Below are positions 1,614 to 61,755 of a DNA stretch of 64,000 nt, piece after piece; the first letter of the stretch is position 1; each line of letters begins with the position of its first letter. Origin of the DNA: an uncultured Alphaproteobacteria bacterium. Its GTDB lineage: Bacteria; Pseudomonadota; Alphaproteobacteria; RF32; CAG-239. Position numbers and translations under genes: made by a program. Location of the stretch: assembly GCA_944391495.1 (NCBI GenBank), contig CALXTU010000005.1:8565-72564 (forward strand), in the 5' to 3' direction. Below the pieces are notes generated by a model. The model was not told the origin of the DNA. It saw only the letters and a program-made list of their open reading frames with translations, and did no database searches.

Positions 1614-1638
1614 TGCAGCAAAACGTTCCTTTTTTTGC
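1614..1638. repeat. Pseudo-palindromic family site, copy A
   Basis: TGCAGCAAAA-CGTTCC-TTTTTTTGC; related copies at 1734, 60850 and 60951. Confidence 0.9.
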
Positions 1639-1712
1639 CGCCATTAAATATAGTATATCAGACATTGGTTAAAAAAGCAATAATTTCGTTTTTACAAATC
1701 TTTATCAAAATC
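1630..1712 (-). promoter_or_regulatory. Conserved 83-bp promoter block of the Cys-rich family (sigma70-like TTGCTT-17-TATACT)
   Basis: -35 at 1675-1680 and -10 at 1652-1657 on the minus strand; 77/83 identical to 60781-60863. Confidence 0.8.
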
Positions 1713-1733
1713 TGCTCCGCTTCTTTGAATTAA

Positions 1734-1758
1734 TGCAGCAAAACGTTCGTTTTTTTGC
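1734..1758. repeat. Pseudo-palindromic family site, copy B
   Basis: TGCAGCAAAA-CGTTCG-TTTTTTTGC, 24/25 direct repeat of copy A, 120 bp away. Confidence 0.9.
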
Positions 1759-1794: not shown

Positions 1795-2295
1795 ATGAAA
1801 AAACTTATTTTATCCTGCAGCTTATTAGCTTTAACCATGCCGGCCTACGCTGCCTTGGATTGTGATGTACTGCCGACTTGTGAAAAACTCGGCTATGCTT
1901 ATTCCGAAGAAAATTGCGAGGGACAACCGACGCTTAAATGTCCGTTTGACGATACGATGTTATATTGCCCCGAACCAATCAGTCCTGCCGAAAAATGCCT
2001 GGCTGAGGGATATTTCAAAGGGGTTTTATGTATTATCAGTCTAGGTCAACTCGAAGAATCTTGTCCGTATGATGACGACTATGGCAAATGTGTTCAATAC
2101 AGCTGCTCTGAAATCAACCGCTCATATTTTTCCGGTTATGAATGTTCATGTACATACGGTGCCTTATCCACCGGAATAACCGGTTCGGACGGCACATGCT
2201 ATCGATGCGGTACCAAAACAGAATGTAAGGTTGAGGATGATAATCCAAATGACAATCAACTCCCCCTCTCGCCATGTCGCATGTGTAAATTCTGA
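1795..2295 (+). CDS. Secreted Cys-rich protein, family member 2
   Basis: Signal peptide (AYA), CDVLPTCEKLGY-x6-CEG-x3-LKCPFD-x5-C; shares the STGxTGSDGxCYRCGTKxEC block with member 1; AAGGAG RBS. Confidence 0.85.
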   Translation: MKKLILSCSLLALTMPAYAALDCDVLPTCEKLGYAYSEENCEGQPTLKCPFDDTMLYCPEPISPAEKCLAEGYFKGVLCIISLGQLEESCPYDDDYGKCVQYSCSEINRSYFSGYECSCTYGALSTGITGSDGTCYRCGTKTECKVEDDNPNDNQLPLSPCRMCKF

Positions 2296-20798: not shown

Positions 20799-21737
20799 AT
20801 GAAACAGGAAATCAAATATGAAGCCTCTGCCGAAGTAACGGCGCTGATTAACGACTGGCGGCAGTGGCTTGCCGGTGAAAAAGGCTGTTCCGTCCATACT
20901 CTGGATGCATATGCCCGGGATCTTTCGTTTTTTTTCACTTTTTGGAACAATTATCTCGGCGCTTTGCCGCGGCTTGATGATCTCAAACAAATTGATGTTC
21001 GGACTTTTCGCGCCTTTTTAAGCACCCGCAGTCAAAAGCACCTGAGCAAGACGTCAATATCCCGCGAGTTGTCGGCAATTAAAAGTTTTTTCAAATGGCT
21101 CAACCGCCGGCACATCATTACCAATACCGCCATTACAATTATCTCTTCACCCAAAAAAGATAAAATTCTGCCCAAAGCTTTGGACGTTGACCAGACTTTT
21201 GAAGTGCTTGACGCCGCCGGAGATTTTGCCAAAACAGAGTGGCAGGGGCTTAGAGATGTCGCCATTTTGACAATACTTTACGGATGCGGTTTGCGAATTT
21301 CTGAAGCCCTGTCACTCAATGTCGGTGATATCAACCATAACGATTTCCTCAAAATACGCGGCAAAGGCAATAAAGAACGGCTGGTGCCGCTCCTGCCCGC
21401 TGTTAAAGAAAAAATCGCCGCCTACCAGCAGGCCTGCCCCTATCATCAGCAACAAGGAGACGCTCTGTTTTTAGGGGCAAGAGGCGAGCGTCTTTCTCCG
21501 CGGATTATCCAGCGAAATTTGGAAAAGCTCAGAAACGCTCTGAGTCTGCCTGACAGCCTGACTCCTCATGCTCTGCGCCATTCTTTTGCCACTCACCTTT
21601 TGGCGGAAGGAACCAATTTGCGCTCCATTCAGGAATTATTGGGCCATGCGTCCCTTTCCACGACCCAGCGCTACACAAATGTTGAGATTGAGCACTTAAA
21701 AAAAGAATACCAAAAGGCACATCTGTTGGACGATTAA
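20799..21737 (+). CDS. xerC: Tyrosine recombinase XerC
   Basis: LYGCGLRISE, GKGNKER, HALRHSFATHLL, LLGHASLSTTQRY; divergent from priA as usual in alphaproteobacteria. Confidence 0.9.
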   Translation: MKQEIKYEASAEVTALINDWRQWLAGEKGCSVHTLDAYARDLSFFFTFWNNYLGALPRLDDLKQIDVRTFRAFLSTRSQKHLSKTSISRELSAIKSFFKWLNRRHIITNTAITIISSPKKDKILPKALDVDQTFEVLDAAGDFAKTEWQGLRDVAILTILYGCGLRISEALSLNVGDINHNDFLKIRGKGNKERLVPLLPAVKEKIAAYQQACPYHQQQGDALFLGARGERLSPRIIQRNLEKLRNALSLPDSLTPHALRHSFATHLLAEGTNLRSIQELLGHASLSTTQRYTNVEIEHLKKEYQKAHLLDD

Positions 21738-60078: not shown

Positions 60079-60543
60079 TTATCTGCTCCTTTTATTCTTG
60101 GGGTTTTTAGAGGCAATGTCCAAAACCTCGGGGTTCTGGGCGGTATGCGGATGCTCACTGCCGGCATAAACCTTCAATTTGGTCATTTGCTGACGACCCA
60201 TCGGATTACGGGAAATCATACGCTCAACGGCTTTAATGATAACTCTTTCCGGGAAACGGCCGTTCAGGATTTTTTCGGCAGTGGTTTCTTTAATACCGCC
60301 GATCCAGCCGGTGTGTTTGAAATATTTTTTGGCCAGCAGTTTGTTGCCGGTCAGTTTAACCTTGTCGGCATTGATAACGACAACATAGTCGCCGCAGTCA
60401 ATGTTCGGAACGAAGTTGGGTTTGTGTTTGCCGCGCAGAATTTTGGCGATTTCGGCAGACAAACGACCCAAGACGACGCCCTCGGCATCGACAACATACC
60501 ATTTTCTCTCAATGTCTGAGGGTTTTGTTGCATATGTGTTCAT
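60079..60543 (-). CDS. rplM: 50S ribosomal protein L13
   Basis: [36 protein letters not shown]. Confidence 0.98.
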
Positions 60544-60780
60544 CTGTTTTCTCTCTTTTGATTAGAAATTTAACTTCGGCGTCAATATACAGGAATAAAA
60601 CATATTGTCAACAAAAAAATATCATTATTTTTCAACGCATTGATAAGTGGTATTATATTACCGTTAAACAATGCATTGTTTTTGCACATTTTATGCAAAT
60701 AATAAAACGCCAACAACCAATCATATTCTTTTTCAGCCGCTGCCCTGGCGGTTGCTGCCTTTACAATATAAGCCGGCGGT

Positions 60781-60863
60781 GATTTTGATAAAGATTTGTA
60801 AATATGAAATTATTGCTTTTTTAACGATTGTCTGATATACTGTGTTTAATGGCGGCAAAAAAA
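60781..60863 (+). promoter_or_regulatory. Second copy of the Cys-rich family promoter block (TTGCTT-17-TATACT)
   Basis: 77/83 identical to the reverse complement of 1630-1712. Confidence 0.85.
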
Positions 60864-60890
60864 CGTTCCTTTTTTTGCCGCCACTTTTTT
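60850..60890 (+). terminator. Leader terminator formed by the left site in the present orientation
   Basis: TGGCGGCAAAAAAA-cgttcc-TTTTTTTGCCGCCA (14-bp perfect stem) followed by CTTTTTT. Confidence 0.65.
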
Positions 60891-60969
60891 GTCTTCATCA
60901 ATTTTCTTTTTCCCTGATTTTCCAAACCTTTCGCTTTTGGCCTTTGTGTAGCAAAAAAAGGAACGTTTT
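60860..60969. repeat. Perfect 19-bp inverted repeats flanking 72 bp (candidate invertible switch)
   Basis: AAAACGTTCCTTTTTTTGC (60860-60878) and GCAAAAAAAGGAACGTTTT (60951-60969). Confidence 0.85.
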
Positions 60970-60996
60970 GCTGCGGCAGAGAAAAGGAGAAGAGCA

Positions 60997-61755
60997 ATGA
61001 GGAAATATCTGTTAATAATGAGTGCAGGTTGTATCGGGTGGCTGGCAACCGGTGCACAGGCGGCCTGTCCTGTTTTCCCTACATGTGAAGAAATGGGTTA
61101 TACAATGACCGCAACGGATTGTTCCGGCAGAGCAACGCTCAAATGTCCGTCTGACCATGCAAAAGTTTTTTGTATTGCCGACAGTTCAACTGAATGTCAA
61201 ATCGGCTCGGTTTTATATAATGACCTCAAGTGTTATGACGAAGCACCGTCCGGTAAAACTGCCATCGGTATCGTTTTTGATACCAGCAAGCGCCTGGCCA
61301 TCAGTTTGGATTCCGGAAAGAATAGCATCTCTTGGGGCAGTAGTGCTGATATTTCCGGATTAGATAACTGTACCGGATCAAATTATACTTCTTGCGGCAC
61401 TGATGGCCAGAGCAATACGCAAAAGATTGTTGCCGCATTGGGCGAATCTTCTGATTATGCGGCCGGTTTTTGCTATACGAGTACTTACGGTAGCTTGCCC
61501 AAAGGCAGCTGGTTCTTGCCGAGCGCCAGTGAATTGAAAACACTGTATAACAACAGAACGCAAATTAATACCGGTATAACCGCAGCCGGGTTTAGTTCTA
61601 CCATTTCGACTGCCTCAATCTATTATTGGTCTTCCACCGAGCGCAACAGTTACAGTGCCTTACTTCTGGGTCTGAGAAATGGCAAAGTGAGCGGCGGCAA
61701 ATTTAAGAATCGTTCCCTTAGTGACCTTTACGCCAGGTGTGCCGTGAAATATTAG
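60997..61755 (+). CDS. Secreted Cys-rich family member 3 with C-terminal DUF1566/CLec-like domain
   Basis: MRKYLL start as in member 1, CPVFPTCEEMGY-x6-CSG-x3-LKCPSD-x5-C; WFLPSASEL and YYWSSTE motifs. Confidence 0.88.
   Translation: MRKYLLIMSAGCIGWLATGAQAACPVFPTCEEMGYTMTATDCSGRATLKCPSDHAKVFCIADSSTECQIGSVLYNDLKCYDEAPSGKTAIGIVFDTSKRLAISLDSGKNSISWGSSADISGLDNCTGSNYTSCGTDGQSNTQKIVAALGESSDYAAGFCYTSTYGSLPKGSWFLPSASELKTLYNNRTQINTGITAAGFSSTISTASIYYWSSTERNSYSALLLGLRNGKVSGGKFKNRSLSDLYARCAVKY

What the first reader, a model, noticed from the sequence alone, without database searches (positions are those of the whole stretch)
60781..60999. Candidate invertible terminator (not invertible promoter) captured in an OFF-like state
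Seen: promoter, left site, 72-bp pyrimidine-rich spacer, right site, RBS; the two sites form a perfect 19-bp inverted repeat. As sequenced, the first bases inside the segment (CGCCA) extend the left site into a 14-bp hairpin followed by CTTTTTT just after the predicted start site, and the C/U-rich, G-poor spacer looks Rho-loading-like. Flipping 60879-60950 shortens that stem to 9 mostly A-U pairs, makes the spacer purine-rich, and puts TGGCGGCAAAAAAAGGAACGTTTTGCTGC before the RBS, which is exactly the leader of member 1 (reverse complement of 1615-1643). Inference: an ON/OFF switch that flips a terminator downstream of a fixed promoter. An RNA-level alternative is that the two IR copies pair as an anti-terminator.
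Basis: partly seen in the sequence, partly recalled or inferred. Interest (0 to 1): 0.88.

Follow-up and report, generated by a model that had tools for sequence, protein, structure and literature searches.

The report
Flippable terminator cassette behind a fixed promoter
A 72-base stretch between a promoter and a secreted-protein gene of an uncultured gut alphaproteobacterium is flanked by recombinase sites and looks like a reversible off/on switch that carries a transcription stop signal, a known kind of switch but here unusually small and present at many places in the genome.

Summary
The order is promoter module, 34-bp palindromic site followed by CTTTTTTG, 72-bp segment that is 76% pyrimidine, inverted second site, SD, then ATG at 60997.

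The hairpin is first of all a recombination crossover site. About 20 such sites lie at 11-12 loci of this 1.46-Mb genome. Two other species of the genus carry related sites with 15-bp symmetric arms around a 2-bp centre.

I compared 12 homologous spacers in the three species. Eight lie pyrimidine-rich, and 7 of those 8 have a T-run right after the promoter-proximal palindrome. Four lie flipped, and none of those has a T-run. The SD is predicted less accessible in the pyrimidine-rich orientation in 10 of 11 loci. At this locus the unpaired probability is 0.16 as sequenced and 0.97 when flipped.

The best candidate enzyme is a 198-aa serine invertase on another contig. Orthologs of at least 80% identity occur only in the two other site-bearing genomes, and it is the only serine recombinase over the Pfam cut-off in G017.

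Inversion at this exact locus was not shown. Metagenome contigs give the sequenced orientation in three runs and one flipped junction in a diverged strain.

Closest precedent: the C. difficile cwpV switch. Verdict: plausible invertible terminator/anti-SD cassette, a new variant of a known kind.

The parts
60781..60849 (+). Promoter module P. It is fixed at this locus, with no site upstream of it.
   Evidence: Promoter-like hit TTGATA-17-AATTAT at 60785-60813. A second candidate, TTGCTT-17-TATACT with a TG extension at 60812-60840, was read. The module recurs at 9 loci of the genome. No transcription-start data.
60850..60883 (.). Promoter-proximal crossover site D1. It has 14-bp perfect inverted arms around CGTTCC, with centre TT at 60866-60867. 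As RNA it forms a 14-bp hairpin.
   Evidence: (I3). Hairpin plus tail folds at -20.3 kcal/mol.
60884..60891 (+). T-run CTTTTTTG directly after the palindrome. Together with D1 it makes an intrinsic-terminator-like signal about 40-45 nt after the likely start site.
   Evidence: A T-run of 5 or more follows the site in 7 of 8 pyrimidine-rich spacers and 0 of 4 flipped spacers.
60879..60950 (.). Candidate invertible segment: 72 bp between the 19-bp repeats and 96 bp between the site centres. It is 76% pyrimidine on the sense strand.
   Evidence: It is 60-94% identical to 11 other spacers in 3 species, 4 of them inverted relative to promoter and gene.
60946..60979 (.). Gene-proximal crossover site D2: GCAAAAAAA-GGAACG-TTTTGCTGC with flanks, centre AA at 60962-60963. 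It is inverted relative to D1.
60984..60989 (+). Shine-Dalgarno AAGGAG. It is predicted to be paired with the pyrimidine-rich leader as sequenced and free after the flip.
   Evidence: Mean unpaired probability of the -15..-4 window is 0.16 as sequenced and 0.97 flipped.
60997..61755 (+). Regulated gene of 252 aa. It has a signal peptide, a Cys-rich N-domain shared by 13 genomic copies, and a weak Lcl_C/DUF1566-like C-terminus.
   Evidence: ORF. Lcl_C at 28.2 bits, below the 34.9-bit cut-off. for the shared N-domain.
1615..1643 (-). 'Member 1' leader. The promoter module is joined directly to a site and then the SD, with no spacer. It is identical to the junction the flip would create here.
1644..1720 (-). 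Promoter module of member 1. The gene is 927-1592 on the minus strand.
   Evidence: 72 of 91 aligned columns are identical to 60781-60863.
1735..1758 (.). Upstream site U of member 1's promoter module. It faces the divergent family gene at 1795-2295 (+) and is in direct orientation to the 1615-1643 site.
   Evidence: C5:10299-10322. ORF.

Best explanation
The locus is a leader-inversion switch.

**Anatomy.** A fixed promoter (60781-60849) transcribes into a 72-bp segment (60879-60950). That segment is bounded by two inverted crossover sites (60850-60883 and 60946-60979) of a trans-acting small serine invertase. The best candidate is the 198-aa protein at G000:C1:325704-326300, which lies outside the window.

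**Sequenced orientation (inferred OFF).** The promoter-proximal site folds in the RNA into a 14-bp hairpin followed at once by a U-run. That is an intrinsic terminator about 40-45 nt after the start. Any read-through leader is pyrimidine-rich and pairs with the SD.

**After inversion (inferred ON).** The hairpin shrinks to 9 mostly A-U pairs with no U-run. The leader becomes purine-rich, the SD is free, and the 29 nt before the SD become identical to the spacer-less leader of a paralog.

**Wider set.** The same invertase probably also flips promoter modules at other loci of the 13-member gene family. Together this gives phase-variable secreted or surface proteins.

**Shown:** the anatomy; the conservation of the design in three species; both orientations among paralogs; the co-occurrence of sites and invertase.

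**Inferred:** that this copy still flips; that the hairpin terminates; which orientation is ON; and which enzyme acts.
For: 1. **Anatomy.**
2. **Multi-locus site family.** The pattern finds 16 places in G000 with 0 hits for the reversed control. Looser patterns add 4 more. 12 of 13 family genes have a site within 350 nt upstream.
3. **Site symmetry.** In G017 the sites have 15-bp perfectly symmetric arms around a 2-bp centre, AA or AT. This is the layout of the gix sites read from phage Mu.
4. **T-run at one end only.** Of 12 homologous spacers in G000, G017 and G069, 8 are pyrimidine-rich in the promoter-to-gene direction and 7 of those 8 have a run of 5 or more T straight after the palindrome. 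The 4 purine-rich spacers have none.
5. **Inverted paralogs.** C7:19100 against C7:41400 is 81% identical reversed and 36% direct. L034 against L044 is 82% reversed and 49% direct.
6. **SD accessibility.** It is lower in the pyrimidine-rich orientation in 10 of 11 loci; the eleventh (L038) is unchanged. At this locus it is 0.16 against 0.97.
7. **Invertase orthologs.**
   - Orthologs of the 198-aa invertase reach 81% in G069 and 80% in G017, and at most 65% elsewhere among 56 genus genomes.
   - Those two are the only other genomes with 6 or more sites.
   - Among the 9 genomes with at least 95% L13 identity (one match partial), sites and the 80% ortholog coincide in the same 2.
8. **Elimination in G017.** It has only two Xer-sized tyrosine recombinases and a single serine recombinase over the Pfam cut-off, and that one is the ortholog.
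9. **Flipped junction in a metagenome.** One X6 contig (133 nt, depth 8.6) joins 60878 to 60950 on opposite strands, with 45 nt reaching into the promoter end. That is the predicted flipped junction.
10. **Precedent.** The cwpV switch has the promoter upstream of the inverted segment and an intrinsic terminator at the left-repeat junction in OFF (PMC2784873, passages read).
Against: - **No heterogeneity shown at this locus.**
  - Only Logan contigs were available, which drop rare variants.
  - X2 and X3 contigs covering 60912-60991, and one X7 contig covering 60845-61226, show the sequenced orientation.
  - The single flipped-junction contig comes from X6, about 10% diverged and holding at least 6 related spacer contigs, so it cannot be assigned to this locus or to the paralog at C2:152304.
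- **No RNA data**, so neither termination nor the start site is shown.
- **Very short loop.** 96 bp between crossover centres is far shorter than the segments I read about: Hin about 1 kb, cwpV 195 bp, flgB 154 bp. A-tract phasing that might help looping was not found; only 2 of 12 spacers reach 0.05 or less.
- **Exception to the T-run rule.** One pyrimidine-rich spacer (G017 L028) lacks the T-run.
- **Kinship.** The invertase link is correlation among related genomes, and G017 is 96% complete.
- **Fixed variants exist.** The spacer-less loci at C5:10232 and C2:344257 have their two sites in direct orientation, so not every family member can switch by inversion.
Confidence: 0.6

Rival explanations
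1. Fossil or locked switch. The sites and spacer descend from an invertible cassette, but this copy no longer flips at a useful rate. The hairpin plus T-run is then a constitutive attenuator, and the gene is silent or controlled in another way.
For: Only the sequenced orientation was found in contigs of X2, X3 and X7. The same orientation holds in the two closest paralogs, C2:152304 and C7:19659. The family also contains clearly fixed variants: spacer-less loci, a promoter-less single-site locus at C3:181845, and a truncated copy at C2:98077.
Against: The two sites keep a perfect 19-bp inverted repeat with correctly opposed centres, TT and AA. The spacer is conserved at 60-94% across three species, with the T-run kept at one end. 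One flipped junction of a spacer of this type exists in X6. Contigs cannot show minority orientations.
Confidence: 0.2
2. Same switch, different enzyme. A tyrosine recombinase, either one of the two Xer-like proteins or the 355-aa integrase, acts on sites read as 9-14-bp arms around a 6-bp spacer (GGAACG).
For: In G000 the sites can be read as lox-like, with 14-bp arms and a 6-bp asymmetric core. The genome has three tyrosine recombinases. The cwpV and flgB precedents use the tyrosine recombinase RecV.
Against: In G017 the symmetry runs to within 2 bp of the centre: GG-AA-CC or the fully palindromic GG-AT-CC. That fits a 2-bp crossover. G017 has only two Xer-sized tyrosine recombinases, and G000's 355-aa integrase has no counterpart there. 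The 198-aa serine invertase tracks the sites.
Confidence: 0.1
3. RNA-level switch without DNA inversion. The two repeat copies pair in the transcript and act as an anti-terminator or riboregulator.
For: The two copies are complementary over 19-27 nt.
Against: The terminator hairpin and U-run are complete about 70 nt before the second copy is made. The minimum-free-energy fold of the sequenced leader keeps the local hairpin. This reading does not explain homologous spacers in both DNA orientations or promoter modules flanked by the same sites. No Rfam family reaches its gathering score.
Confidence: 0.04
4. The palindromes are only structural elements, such as bidirectional terminators or REP-like repeats. 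Under this reading the different arrangements arose by duplication and divergence, not by site-specific recombination.
For: Each site is a hairpin. In 'parked' promoter loci the site is again followed by a T-run.
Against: Inversions among paralogs are bounded precisely by the sites. The sites have an asymmetric 2-bp centre whose orientation alternates as inversion requires. They are restricted to the genomes carrying one invertase ortholog.
Confidence: 0.04

Closest known systems
Clostridioides difficile cwpV switch (RecV)
   Same: An IR-flanked segment lies in the 5' leader. [quoted passage not shown] In the OFF orientation a stem-loop plus poly-U forms at the junction of the left repeat and the segment, 60-70 nt after the start. 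It controls a surface protein (PMC2784873, abstract and passages).
   Different: cwpV has 195 bp between 21-bp imperfect repeats; here there are 72 bp between 19-bp perfect repeats. RecV is a tyrosine recombinase; here the candidate is a serine invertase. cwpV is a single locus; here there are four spacer-bearing loci (three with this locus's layout) among 11-12 site-bearing loci. Here the stem is the recombination site itself, and SD pairing is predicted as a second lock. The host is an uncultured alphaproteobacterium rather than a Firmicute.
C. difficile flagellar (flgB) switch
   Same: A 154-bp invertible element lies in the leader downstream of the promoter and acts after transcription initiation (PMC7446863, passages).
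   Different: That switch acts through Rho with no intrinsic terminator.
Bacteroides fragilis Mpi regulon
   Same: One serine-type master recombinase inverts many regions scattered through the genome and controls surface molecules (passage in PMC5903667). Here one invertase candidate goes with about 20 sites on 7 of 8 contigs.
   Different: From recall, Mpi's regions carry promoters; the primary paper PMC193581 is not held. Here both promoter modules and promoter-less leader cassettes are flanked by the same sites. Relatedness of the two enzymes was not tested.
Hin/Gin/Pin DNA invertases
   Same: The candidate is a small (about 190-200 aa) serine recombinase. Its best solved relatives are Gin, 4m6f and 3uj3. 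The crossover sites consist of two inverted half-sites with A/T tracts around a 2-bp centre, as in the gix sites read.
   Different: Identity to Gin is only 27%. The gene is not next to its segments. Hin inverts about 1 kb with a Fis-bound enhancer (PMC3798978). Here the centres are 96 bp apart and no enhancer is known.

Membership tests
cwpV-type leader-inversion (invertible terminator) switch | Inverted repeats flank a short segment lying between promoter and start codon | tested here: met
   19-bp perfect IR, 72 bp between the repeats, and the segment ends 46 nt before the ATG.
cwpV-type leader-inversion (invertible terminator) switch | The promoter lies outside (upstream of) the segment, with none inside | tested here: inconclusive
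   Promoter-like sites occur only upstream, at 60785-60813 and 60812-60840. The scan finds none in 60879-60950. These are consensus matches only, with no start-site data.
cwpV-type leader-inversion (invertible terminator) switch | Orientation-specific intrinsic terminator at the repeat/segment junction | tested here: met
   In silico only. As sequenced there is a 14-bp stem plus T-run at -20.3 kcal/mol; flipped it is -11.7 with no T-run. The T-run follows the site in 7 of 8 pyrimidine-rich and 0 of 4 flipped homologous spacers.
cwpV-type leader-inversion (invertible terminator) switch | The segment is found in both orientations within a population | tested here: inconclusive
   Only contigs were available. 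The sequenced orientation appears in X2, X3 and X7. One flipped junction appears in the diverged X6. Both orientations occur among paralogs.
cwpV-type leader-inversion (invertible terminator) switch | Expression differs between orientations | not testable with these tools
Hin/Gin-type serine DNA invertase system | Small serine recombinase with an N-terminal resolvase catalytic domain and a C-terminal HTH | tested here: met
   The 198-aa protein hits PF00239 at E 2.4e-28. A weak HTH_38 hit at 164-191 is below cut-off. The best PDB hits are Gin. It aligns with Mu Gin end to end at 27%.
Hin/Gin-type serine DNA invertase system | Crossover sites made of two inverted half-sites around a 2-bp centre | tested here: met
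   G017 sites have 15+2+15 perfect symmetry with centre AA or AT. G000 sites are GG/CG-AA-CG. Compared with Mu gix.
Hin/Gin-type serine DNA invertase system | Recombinational enhancer with Fis, and the invertase gene next to its segment | tested here: not met
   Adjacency is not met. The gene is on contig C1, with no site nearby; the only inverted repeat found near it is an unrelated palindrome. The sites lie on the other contigs. An enhancer and Fis were not looked for.
Mpi-like master-invertase regulon | One serine recombinase and many dispersed regions sharing the same repeats | tested here: met
   By inference only. There are 16-20 sites at 11-12 loci. G017 has 19 sites and a single serine recombinase over the cut-off.
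Mpi-like master-invertase regulon | The invertible regions carry promoters | tested here: not met
   This holds for this locus only: the promoter lies outside the segment. At other loci (C8:22613, C3:56071, C7:41982, and G017 L022, L026, L028, L030) the promoter module is itself flanked by inverted sites.

The most novel reading that the evidence does not exclude
One master serine invertase runs a genome-wide, two-layer switchboard in a 1.46-Mb gut alphaproteobacterium. Classical invertible promoter modules (about 125-130 bp between sites) and separate, promoter-less terminator/anti-SD cassettes (60-72 bp between sites, 85-97 bp between crossover centres) sit side by side at the same loci. A gene can therefore be gated twice. 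The cassette would also be shorter than any natural invertible segment I met in the papers read here.
Probability: 0.4. Interest if true: 0.75.

Novelty: new variant of a known kind. Interest (0 to 1): 0.62.

Why it matters
Inversion switches are usually looked for and annotated as invertible promoters. The only well-studied cases where the flipped piece acts after initiation are the C. difficile cwpV and flgB switches.

If this reading is right, the principle also exists in Proteobacteria and is run by a different recombinase class. It is also present at several loci of one genome and sits beside ordinary invertible promoters at the same loci. Further, a segment of only 72 bp would be enough, which would push the physical limit for synapsis of two sites.

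It would also give a first handle on phase variation of secreted or surface proteins in an abundant but uncultured lineage of animal-gut Alphaproteobacteria. And it would warn that inverton finders tuned to promoters and longer segments may miss such cassettes.

Tried and rejected
1. **A-tract phasing.** I tested whether phased A/T tracts could explain the T-rich spacer by easing a 96-bp loop. AA/TT power at 10-11 bp exceeded shuffles at 0.05 or less in only 2 of 12 spacers. Dropped.

2. **Other sample contigs.** Scanning metagenome contigs with a 21-nt spacer stretch gave one unrelated low-complexity hit.

3. **Gene family in other genomes.** A genome-contig scan with the family alignment matched 21 pattern stretches, none confirmed.

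4. **Orthologous position in relatives.** I looked upstream of rplM in 20 of the 80 relatives fetched (L063-L082). There were no real sites, so the locus is not conserved there.

5. **Loose ends after 60876-60883 in X2 and X3.** I first read these as promoter modules flipped toward divergent genes. The 24-nt site alone could have anchored those contigs, and the assembled arrangement contains the same junction on the other strand. I do not count them.

6. **Other joints.**
   - The 'skips 96' joint (60854 to 60951) matches the spacer-less paralogs.
   - The 'skips 324' joint matches the truncated copy at C2:98077.
   - Neither is a variant of this locus.

7. **HlyD-like neighbour as a kinship marker.** It is an accessory gene absent from G017 and G069. 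I replaced it with L13.

8. **Rfam.** Nothing at gathering score; the best hit is 26.5 bits against a threshold of 100.

9. **Rho loading.** No tool was available, so it stays untested.

10. **Literature.**
    - A search for a recalled repeat consensus of the Mpi system found no paper, and the primary Mpi paper is not held. I make no sequence comparison with Mpi sites.
    - Searches for phase variation in these gut Alphaproteobacteria and for invertons with terminators (one passage read) found no description of this system. Supplements were not opened.

Full report
**1. What is in the sequence.**

Reading 60500-61400 shows this order:
- A promoter module (60781-60849).
- The palindrome TGGCGGCAAAAAAA-CGTTCC-TTTTTTTGCCGCCA (60850-60883).
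- CTTTTTTG.
- A pyrimidine-rich stretch.
- GCAAAAAAA-GGAACG-TTTTGCTGC (60951-60974).
- AAGGAG (60984-60989) and ATG (60997), opening a 252-aa ORF.

The repeat and hairpin checks are as follows:
- The repeat finder gives the 14-bp perfect palindrome, and a 27-nt, 89% inverted repeat with 72 nt between the arms.
- A script confirms the 19-bp perfect inverted repeat.
- The same script confirms that inverting 60879-60950 creates, just before the SD, a 29-mer identical to the reverse complement of 1615-1643. That 29-mer is absent from the locus as sequenced.
- The site pattern occurs 4 times in the window against 0.01 expected.
- The consensus scan lists 60850-60883 plus its tail as terminator-like, and finds a promoter-like site at 60785-60813.
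- The spacer is A9 C19 G8 T36.

**2. The locus is one of a family.**

The window is G000:C5:8565-72564 of a 1.46-Mb, 8-contig genome. Its closest named relatives are gut MAGs labelled uncultured Alphaproteobacteria or 'Azospirillum sp.'. The runs that hold it are mostly chicken-gut metagenomes.

A 20-nt piece of the promoter module has 10 matches in the genome. I dropped one (C3:163756) because it has no site and no other similarity. The other nine are promoter modules followed by TGGCGGCAAAAAAA and a site. They fall into four arrangements:
- **(i) Promoter, palindromic site plus T-run, spacer, site, SD, gene:** C2:152304, this locus, and C7:19659.
- **(ii) The same with the spacer reversed:** C7:41982.
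- **(iii) Promoter, site, SD with no spacer:** C5:10232 ('member 1'), C2:344257 and C1:273468.
- **(iv) Promoter pointing through a palindromic site into unrelated DNA, with a family gene behind it beyond a second, inverted site:** C3:56071 and C8:22613.

tblastn finds 13 copies of the gene's Cys-rich N-domain. Twelve have a site within 350 nt upstream. The thirteenth is a truncated copy.

**3. The hairpin is a recombination site.**

In a second species of the genus (G017) the sites read TGTTGCAAAAAAAGG-AA-CCTTTTTTTGCAACA, or with AT at the centre. That is 15-bp perfectly symmetric arms around 2 bp. They stand in pairs and triples spaced about 96 and about 151 bp apart. A third species (G069) has GTGGCAAATAAAGG-AA-CC/CG sites in the same arrangements.

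Two inverted half-sites around a 2-bp centre is the layout of serine-invertase crossover sites. The phage Mu gix sites, read from the annotated record, are TTCCTGTAAACC-GA-GGTTTTGGATAA and its inverted partner. In G000 the centre is AA flanked by GG or CG on one side and CG on the other. At this locus the two centres are opposed, TT at 60866-60867 and AA at 60962-60963, as inversion requires.

So the extra CGCCA that 'extends the left site into a 14-bp hairpin' is the second arm of a two-fold symmetric protein-binding site.

**4. The terminator reading survives, because the design is conserved.**

I collected every case in the three genomes where a promoter module is followed by two sites 50-90 nt apart. 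That gave 12 spacers. They are homologous to one another at 60-94% identity.

| Orientation, promoter to gene | Spacers | T-run of 5 or more just after the promoter-proximal palindrome |
|---|---|---|
| Pyrimidine-rich (65-77%) | 8 | 7 of 8 (exception: G017 L028) |
| Purine-rich (24-36% pyrimidine) | 4 | 0 of 4 |

In the four purine-rich spacers the complementary A-run sits in front of the gene-proximal site instead.

Paralog pairs differ by a clean inversion bounded by the sites:
- G000 C7:19100 against C7:41400 is 81% identical when one is reversed and 36% when not.
- G017 L034 against L044 is 82% reversed and 49% direct.

Where a promoter module points away from a family gene, the site behind it is followed by a T-run in four of five cases I read: G000 C3:56071, G017 L022 and L026, and G069 L143. 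The exception is G000 C8:22613, which has only a weak run. 'Site plus T-run' therefore looks like the family's general stop signal, and the spacer carries it at one end only.

**5. A second predicted lock.**

I folded each leader from about 22 nt after the promoter motif to codon 11, both as found and inverted in silico between the site centres.

The window -15 to -4 before the start codon is less accessible in the pyrimidine-rich orientation in 10 of 11 loci. L038 is unchanged. At this locus the mean unpaired probability is 0.16 as sequenced and 0.97 flipped.

In G017 the spacer end next to the gene-proximal site (CCCTTC) is complementary to the SD side (GAAGGG). This extends that palindrome only in the pyrimidine-rich orientation.

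These are predictions only. A pyrimidine-rich RNA will tend to pair with a purine-rich SD in any case.

**6. Which enzyme.**

G000 has three tyrosine recombinases: two Xer-like proteins of 298 and 312 aa, and a 355-aa integrase. It also has three small serine recombinases of 196, 198 and 210 aa.

- **Sites across the genus.** Across 56 genomes of the genus the site pattern is found in G000, G017 (19 places), G069 (6) and G008 (1). The reversed control gives none.
- **Orthologs of the 198-aa protein.** The 198-aa protein (C1:325704-326300) has orthologs of 81% in G069 and 80% in G017. The next best is 65%.
- **The 196-aa protein does not track the sites.** Its best relative (73%) is in G050, which has no sites.
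- **Not simple kinship.**
  - Nine genomes have at least 95% L13 identity to G000, one of them a partial match.
  - Only G017 and G069 among them have the sites, and only they have the 80% ortholog.
  - In the other seven the best match is at most 63%, or nothing at E 1e-10 or below.
- **Elimination.** G017 (96% complete) has just two Xer-sized tyrosine recombinases and one serine recombinase over the Pfam cut-off, which is that ortholog.

The protein has a resolvase domain. Its best solved relatives are Gin, and it is 27% identical to Mu Gin. It is not next to any site. If it is the enzyme, it acts in trans on many loci, as the serine recombinase Mpi is said to do in B. fragilis (passage in PMC5903667).

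**7. Does this copy flip?**

Only assembled contigs of public runs could be laid.
- In X2 and X3 (one study), contigs of 79-80 nt cover 60912-60991 in the sequenced arrangement.
- In X7 (another study), one 385-nt contig spans 60845-61226 in the sequenced orientation.
- In X6 (a third study; flanks about 4% and spacers about 10% different), one 133-nt contig at depth 8.6 joins 60878 to 60950 on opposite strands. 45 nt of it run back into the promoter end. That is exactly the flipped junction.
- Other X6 contigs show the unflipped junction.
- X6 holds at least six related spacer contigs. I therefore cannot say whether the flipped one comes from this locus, from its 94%-identical paralog C2:152304, or from a second strain.

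Contigs suppress minority variants, so the lack of flipped contigs in X2, X3 and X7 says little. Inversion of spacers of this type between strains or paralogs is supported. Switching at this locus within a population is open.

**8. Comparison with what is known.**

- **cwpV switch of C. difficile.**
  - In OFF, a stem-loop plus poly-U forms at the junction of the left repeat and the inverted region (PMC2784873, abstract and passages).
  - Its segment is 195 bp and its recombinase, RecV, is a tyrosine enzyme.
- **flgB switch.** It is 154 bp and acts through Rho in the leader (PMC7446863).
- **Hin.** It inverts about 1 kb between 26-bp sites with an enhancer, and HU helps form a loop of about 100 bp (PMC3798978).

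My searches found no description of this system or of phase variation in this lineage. Supplements were closed and were not seen.

The finding is therefore not a new principle but a distinct variant, because:
- The candidate enzyme is a serine invertase.
- The stem of the terminator is the crossover site itself.
- The segment is much shorter, 72 bp.
- It occurs at several loci per genome.
- It coexists with invertible promoter modules that use the same sites.

**9. Verdict.**

My confidence in the leader-inversion, terminator/anti-SD model for this locus is 0.6. The main rival is that this copy is a fixed relic. Interest is 0.62.

Noticed in passing
G000:C3:181820-181980 (outside the window; locus L043): Two divergent family genes are separated by about 150 nt containing a single site and no promoter module. 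This is what excision between two directly oriented sites, as at C5:10232, would leave behind.
   Followed up: partly
G000:C2:98077-98400 (outside the window): A truncated copy of this very locus. The first ~21 nt of the promoter module are joined directly to the gene from about codon 46, at 90% identity. It explains the 'skips 324' joint seen in X2 and X3 contigs.
   Followed up: partly
G000:C6:26750-26900 (outside the window): A further site-flanked, promoter-like module lies in reverse orientation upstream of a gene that the N-domain search did not pick up (MLKTRYIF...). The same sites may control genes outside the family.
   Followed up: no
window 60879-60999, inverted in silico: In the flipped orientation an in-frame ATG appears 22 codons upstream of the annotated start, with no stop between. 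As sequenced, an in-frame stop lies 16 codons upstream. No equivalent upstream ATG or ORF is conserved in the three G017 purine-rich spacers that I read (L030, L038, L044).
   Followed up: partly
window 1615-1758: At 'member 1' the two sites flanking the promoter module are in direct orientation, both with centre AA. At C2:344257 both sites have centre AT. The centres co-vary within a locus, as expected if partner sites must match.
   Followed up: partly
genus-wide; G000:C1:325704-331763: 45 of 56 genomes (G000 included) of this small-genome genus (about 1.1-1.7 Mb) have matches to the 198-aa serine recombinase. Up to 7 matches occur per genome, a few of them fragments or carrying in-frame stops. 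In G000 two paralogs (54% identical) lie 5 kb apart around a 754-aa ORF with a signal-peptide-like start.
   Followed up: no
G000:C7:19703-19860; C2:97990-98075; G017 L022; G069 L143 and L146: Short repeated elements, recurring 'gtcattctgagg...cctcagaatgac' hairpin-like units, sit next to or inside promoter-bearing segments in all three species. They enlarge one invertible segment in G069 to about 390 bp.
   Followed up: no
window 20799-21737 (+): A XerC-like tyrosine recombinase of 312 aa is encoded in the window. I take it for the housekeeping Xer enzyme, not the switch recombinase.
   Followed up: partly
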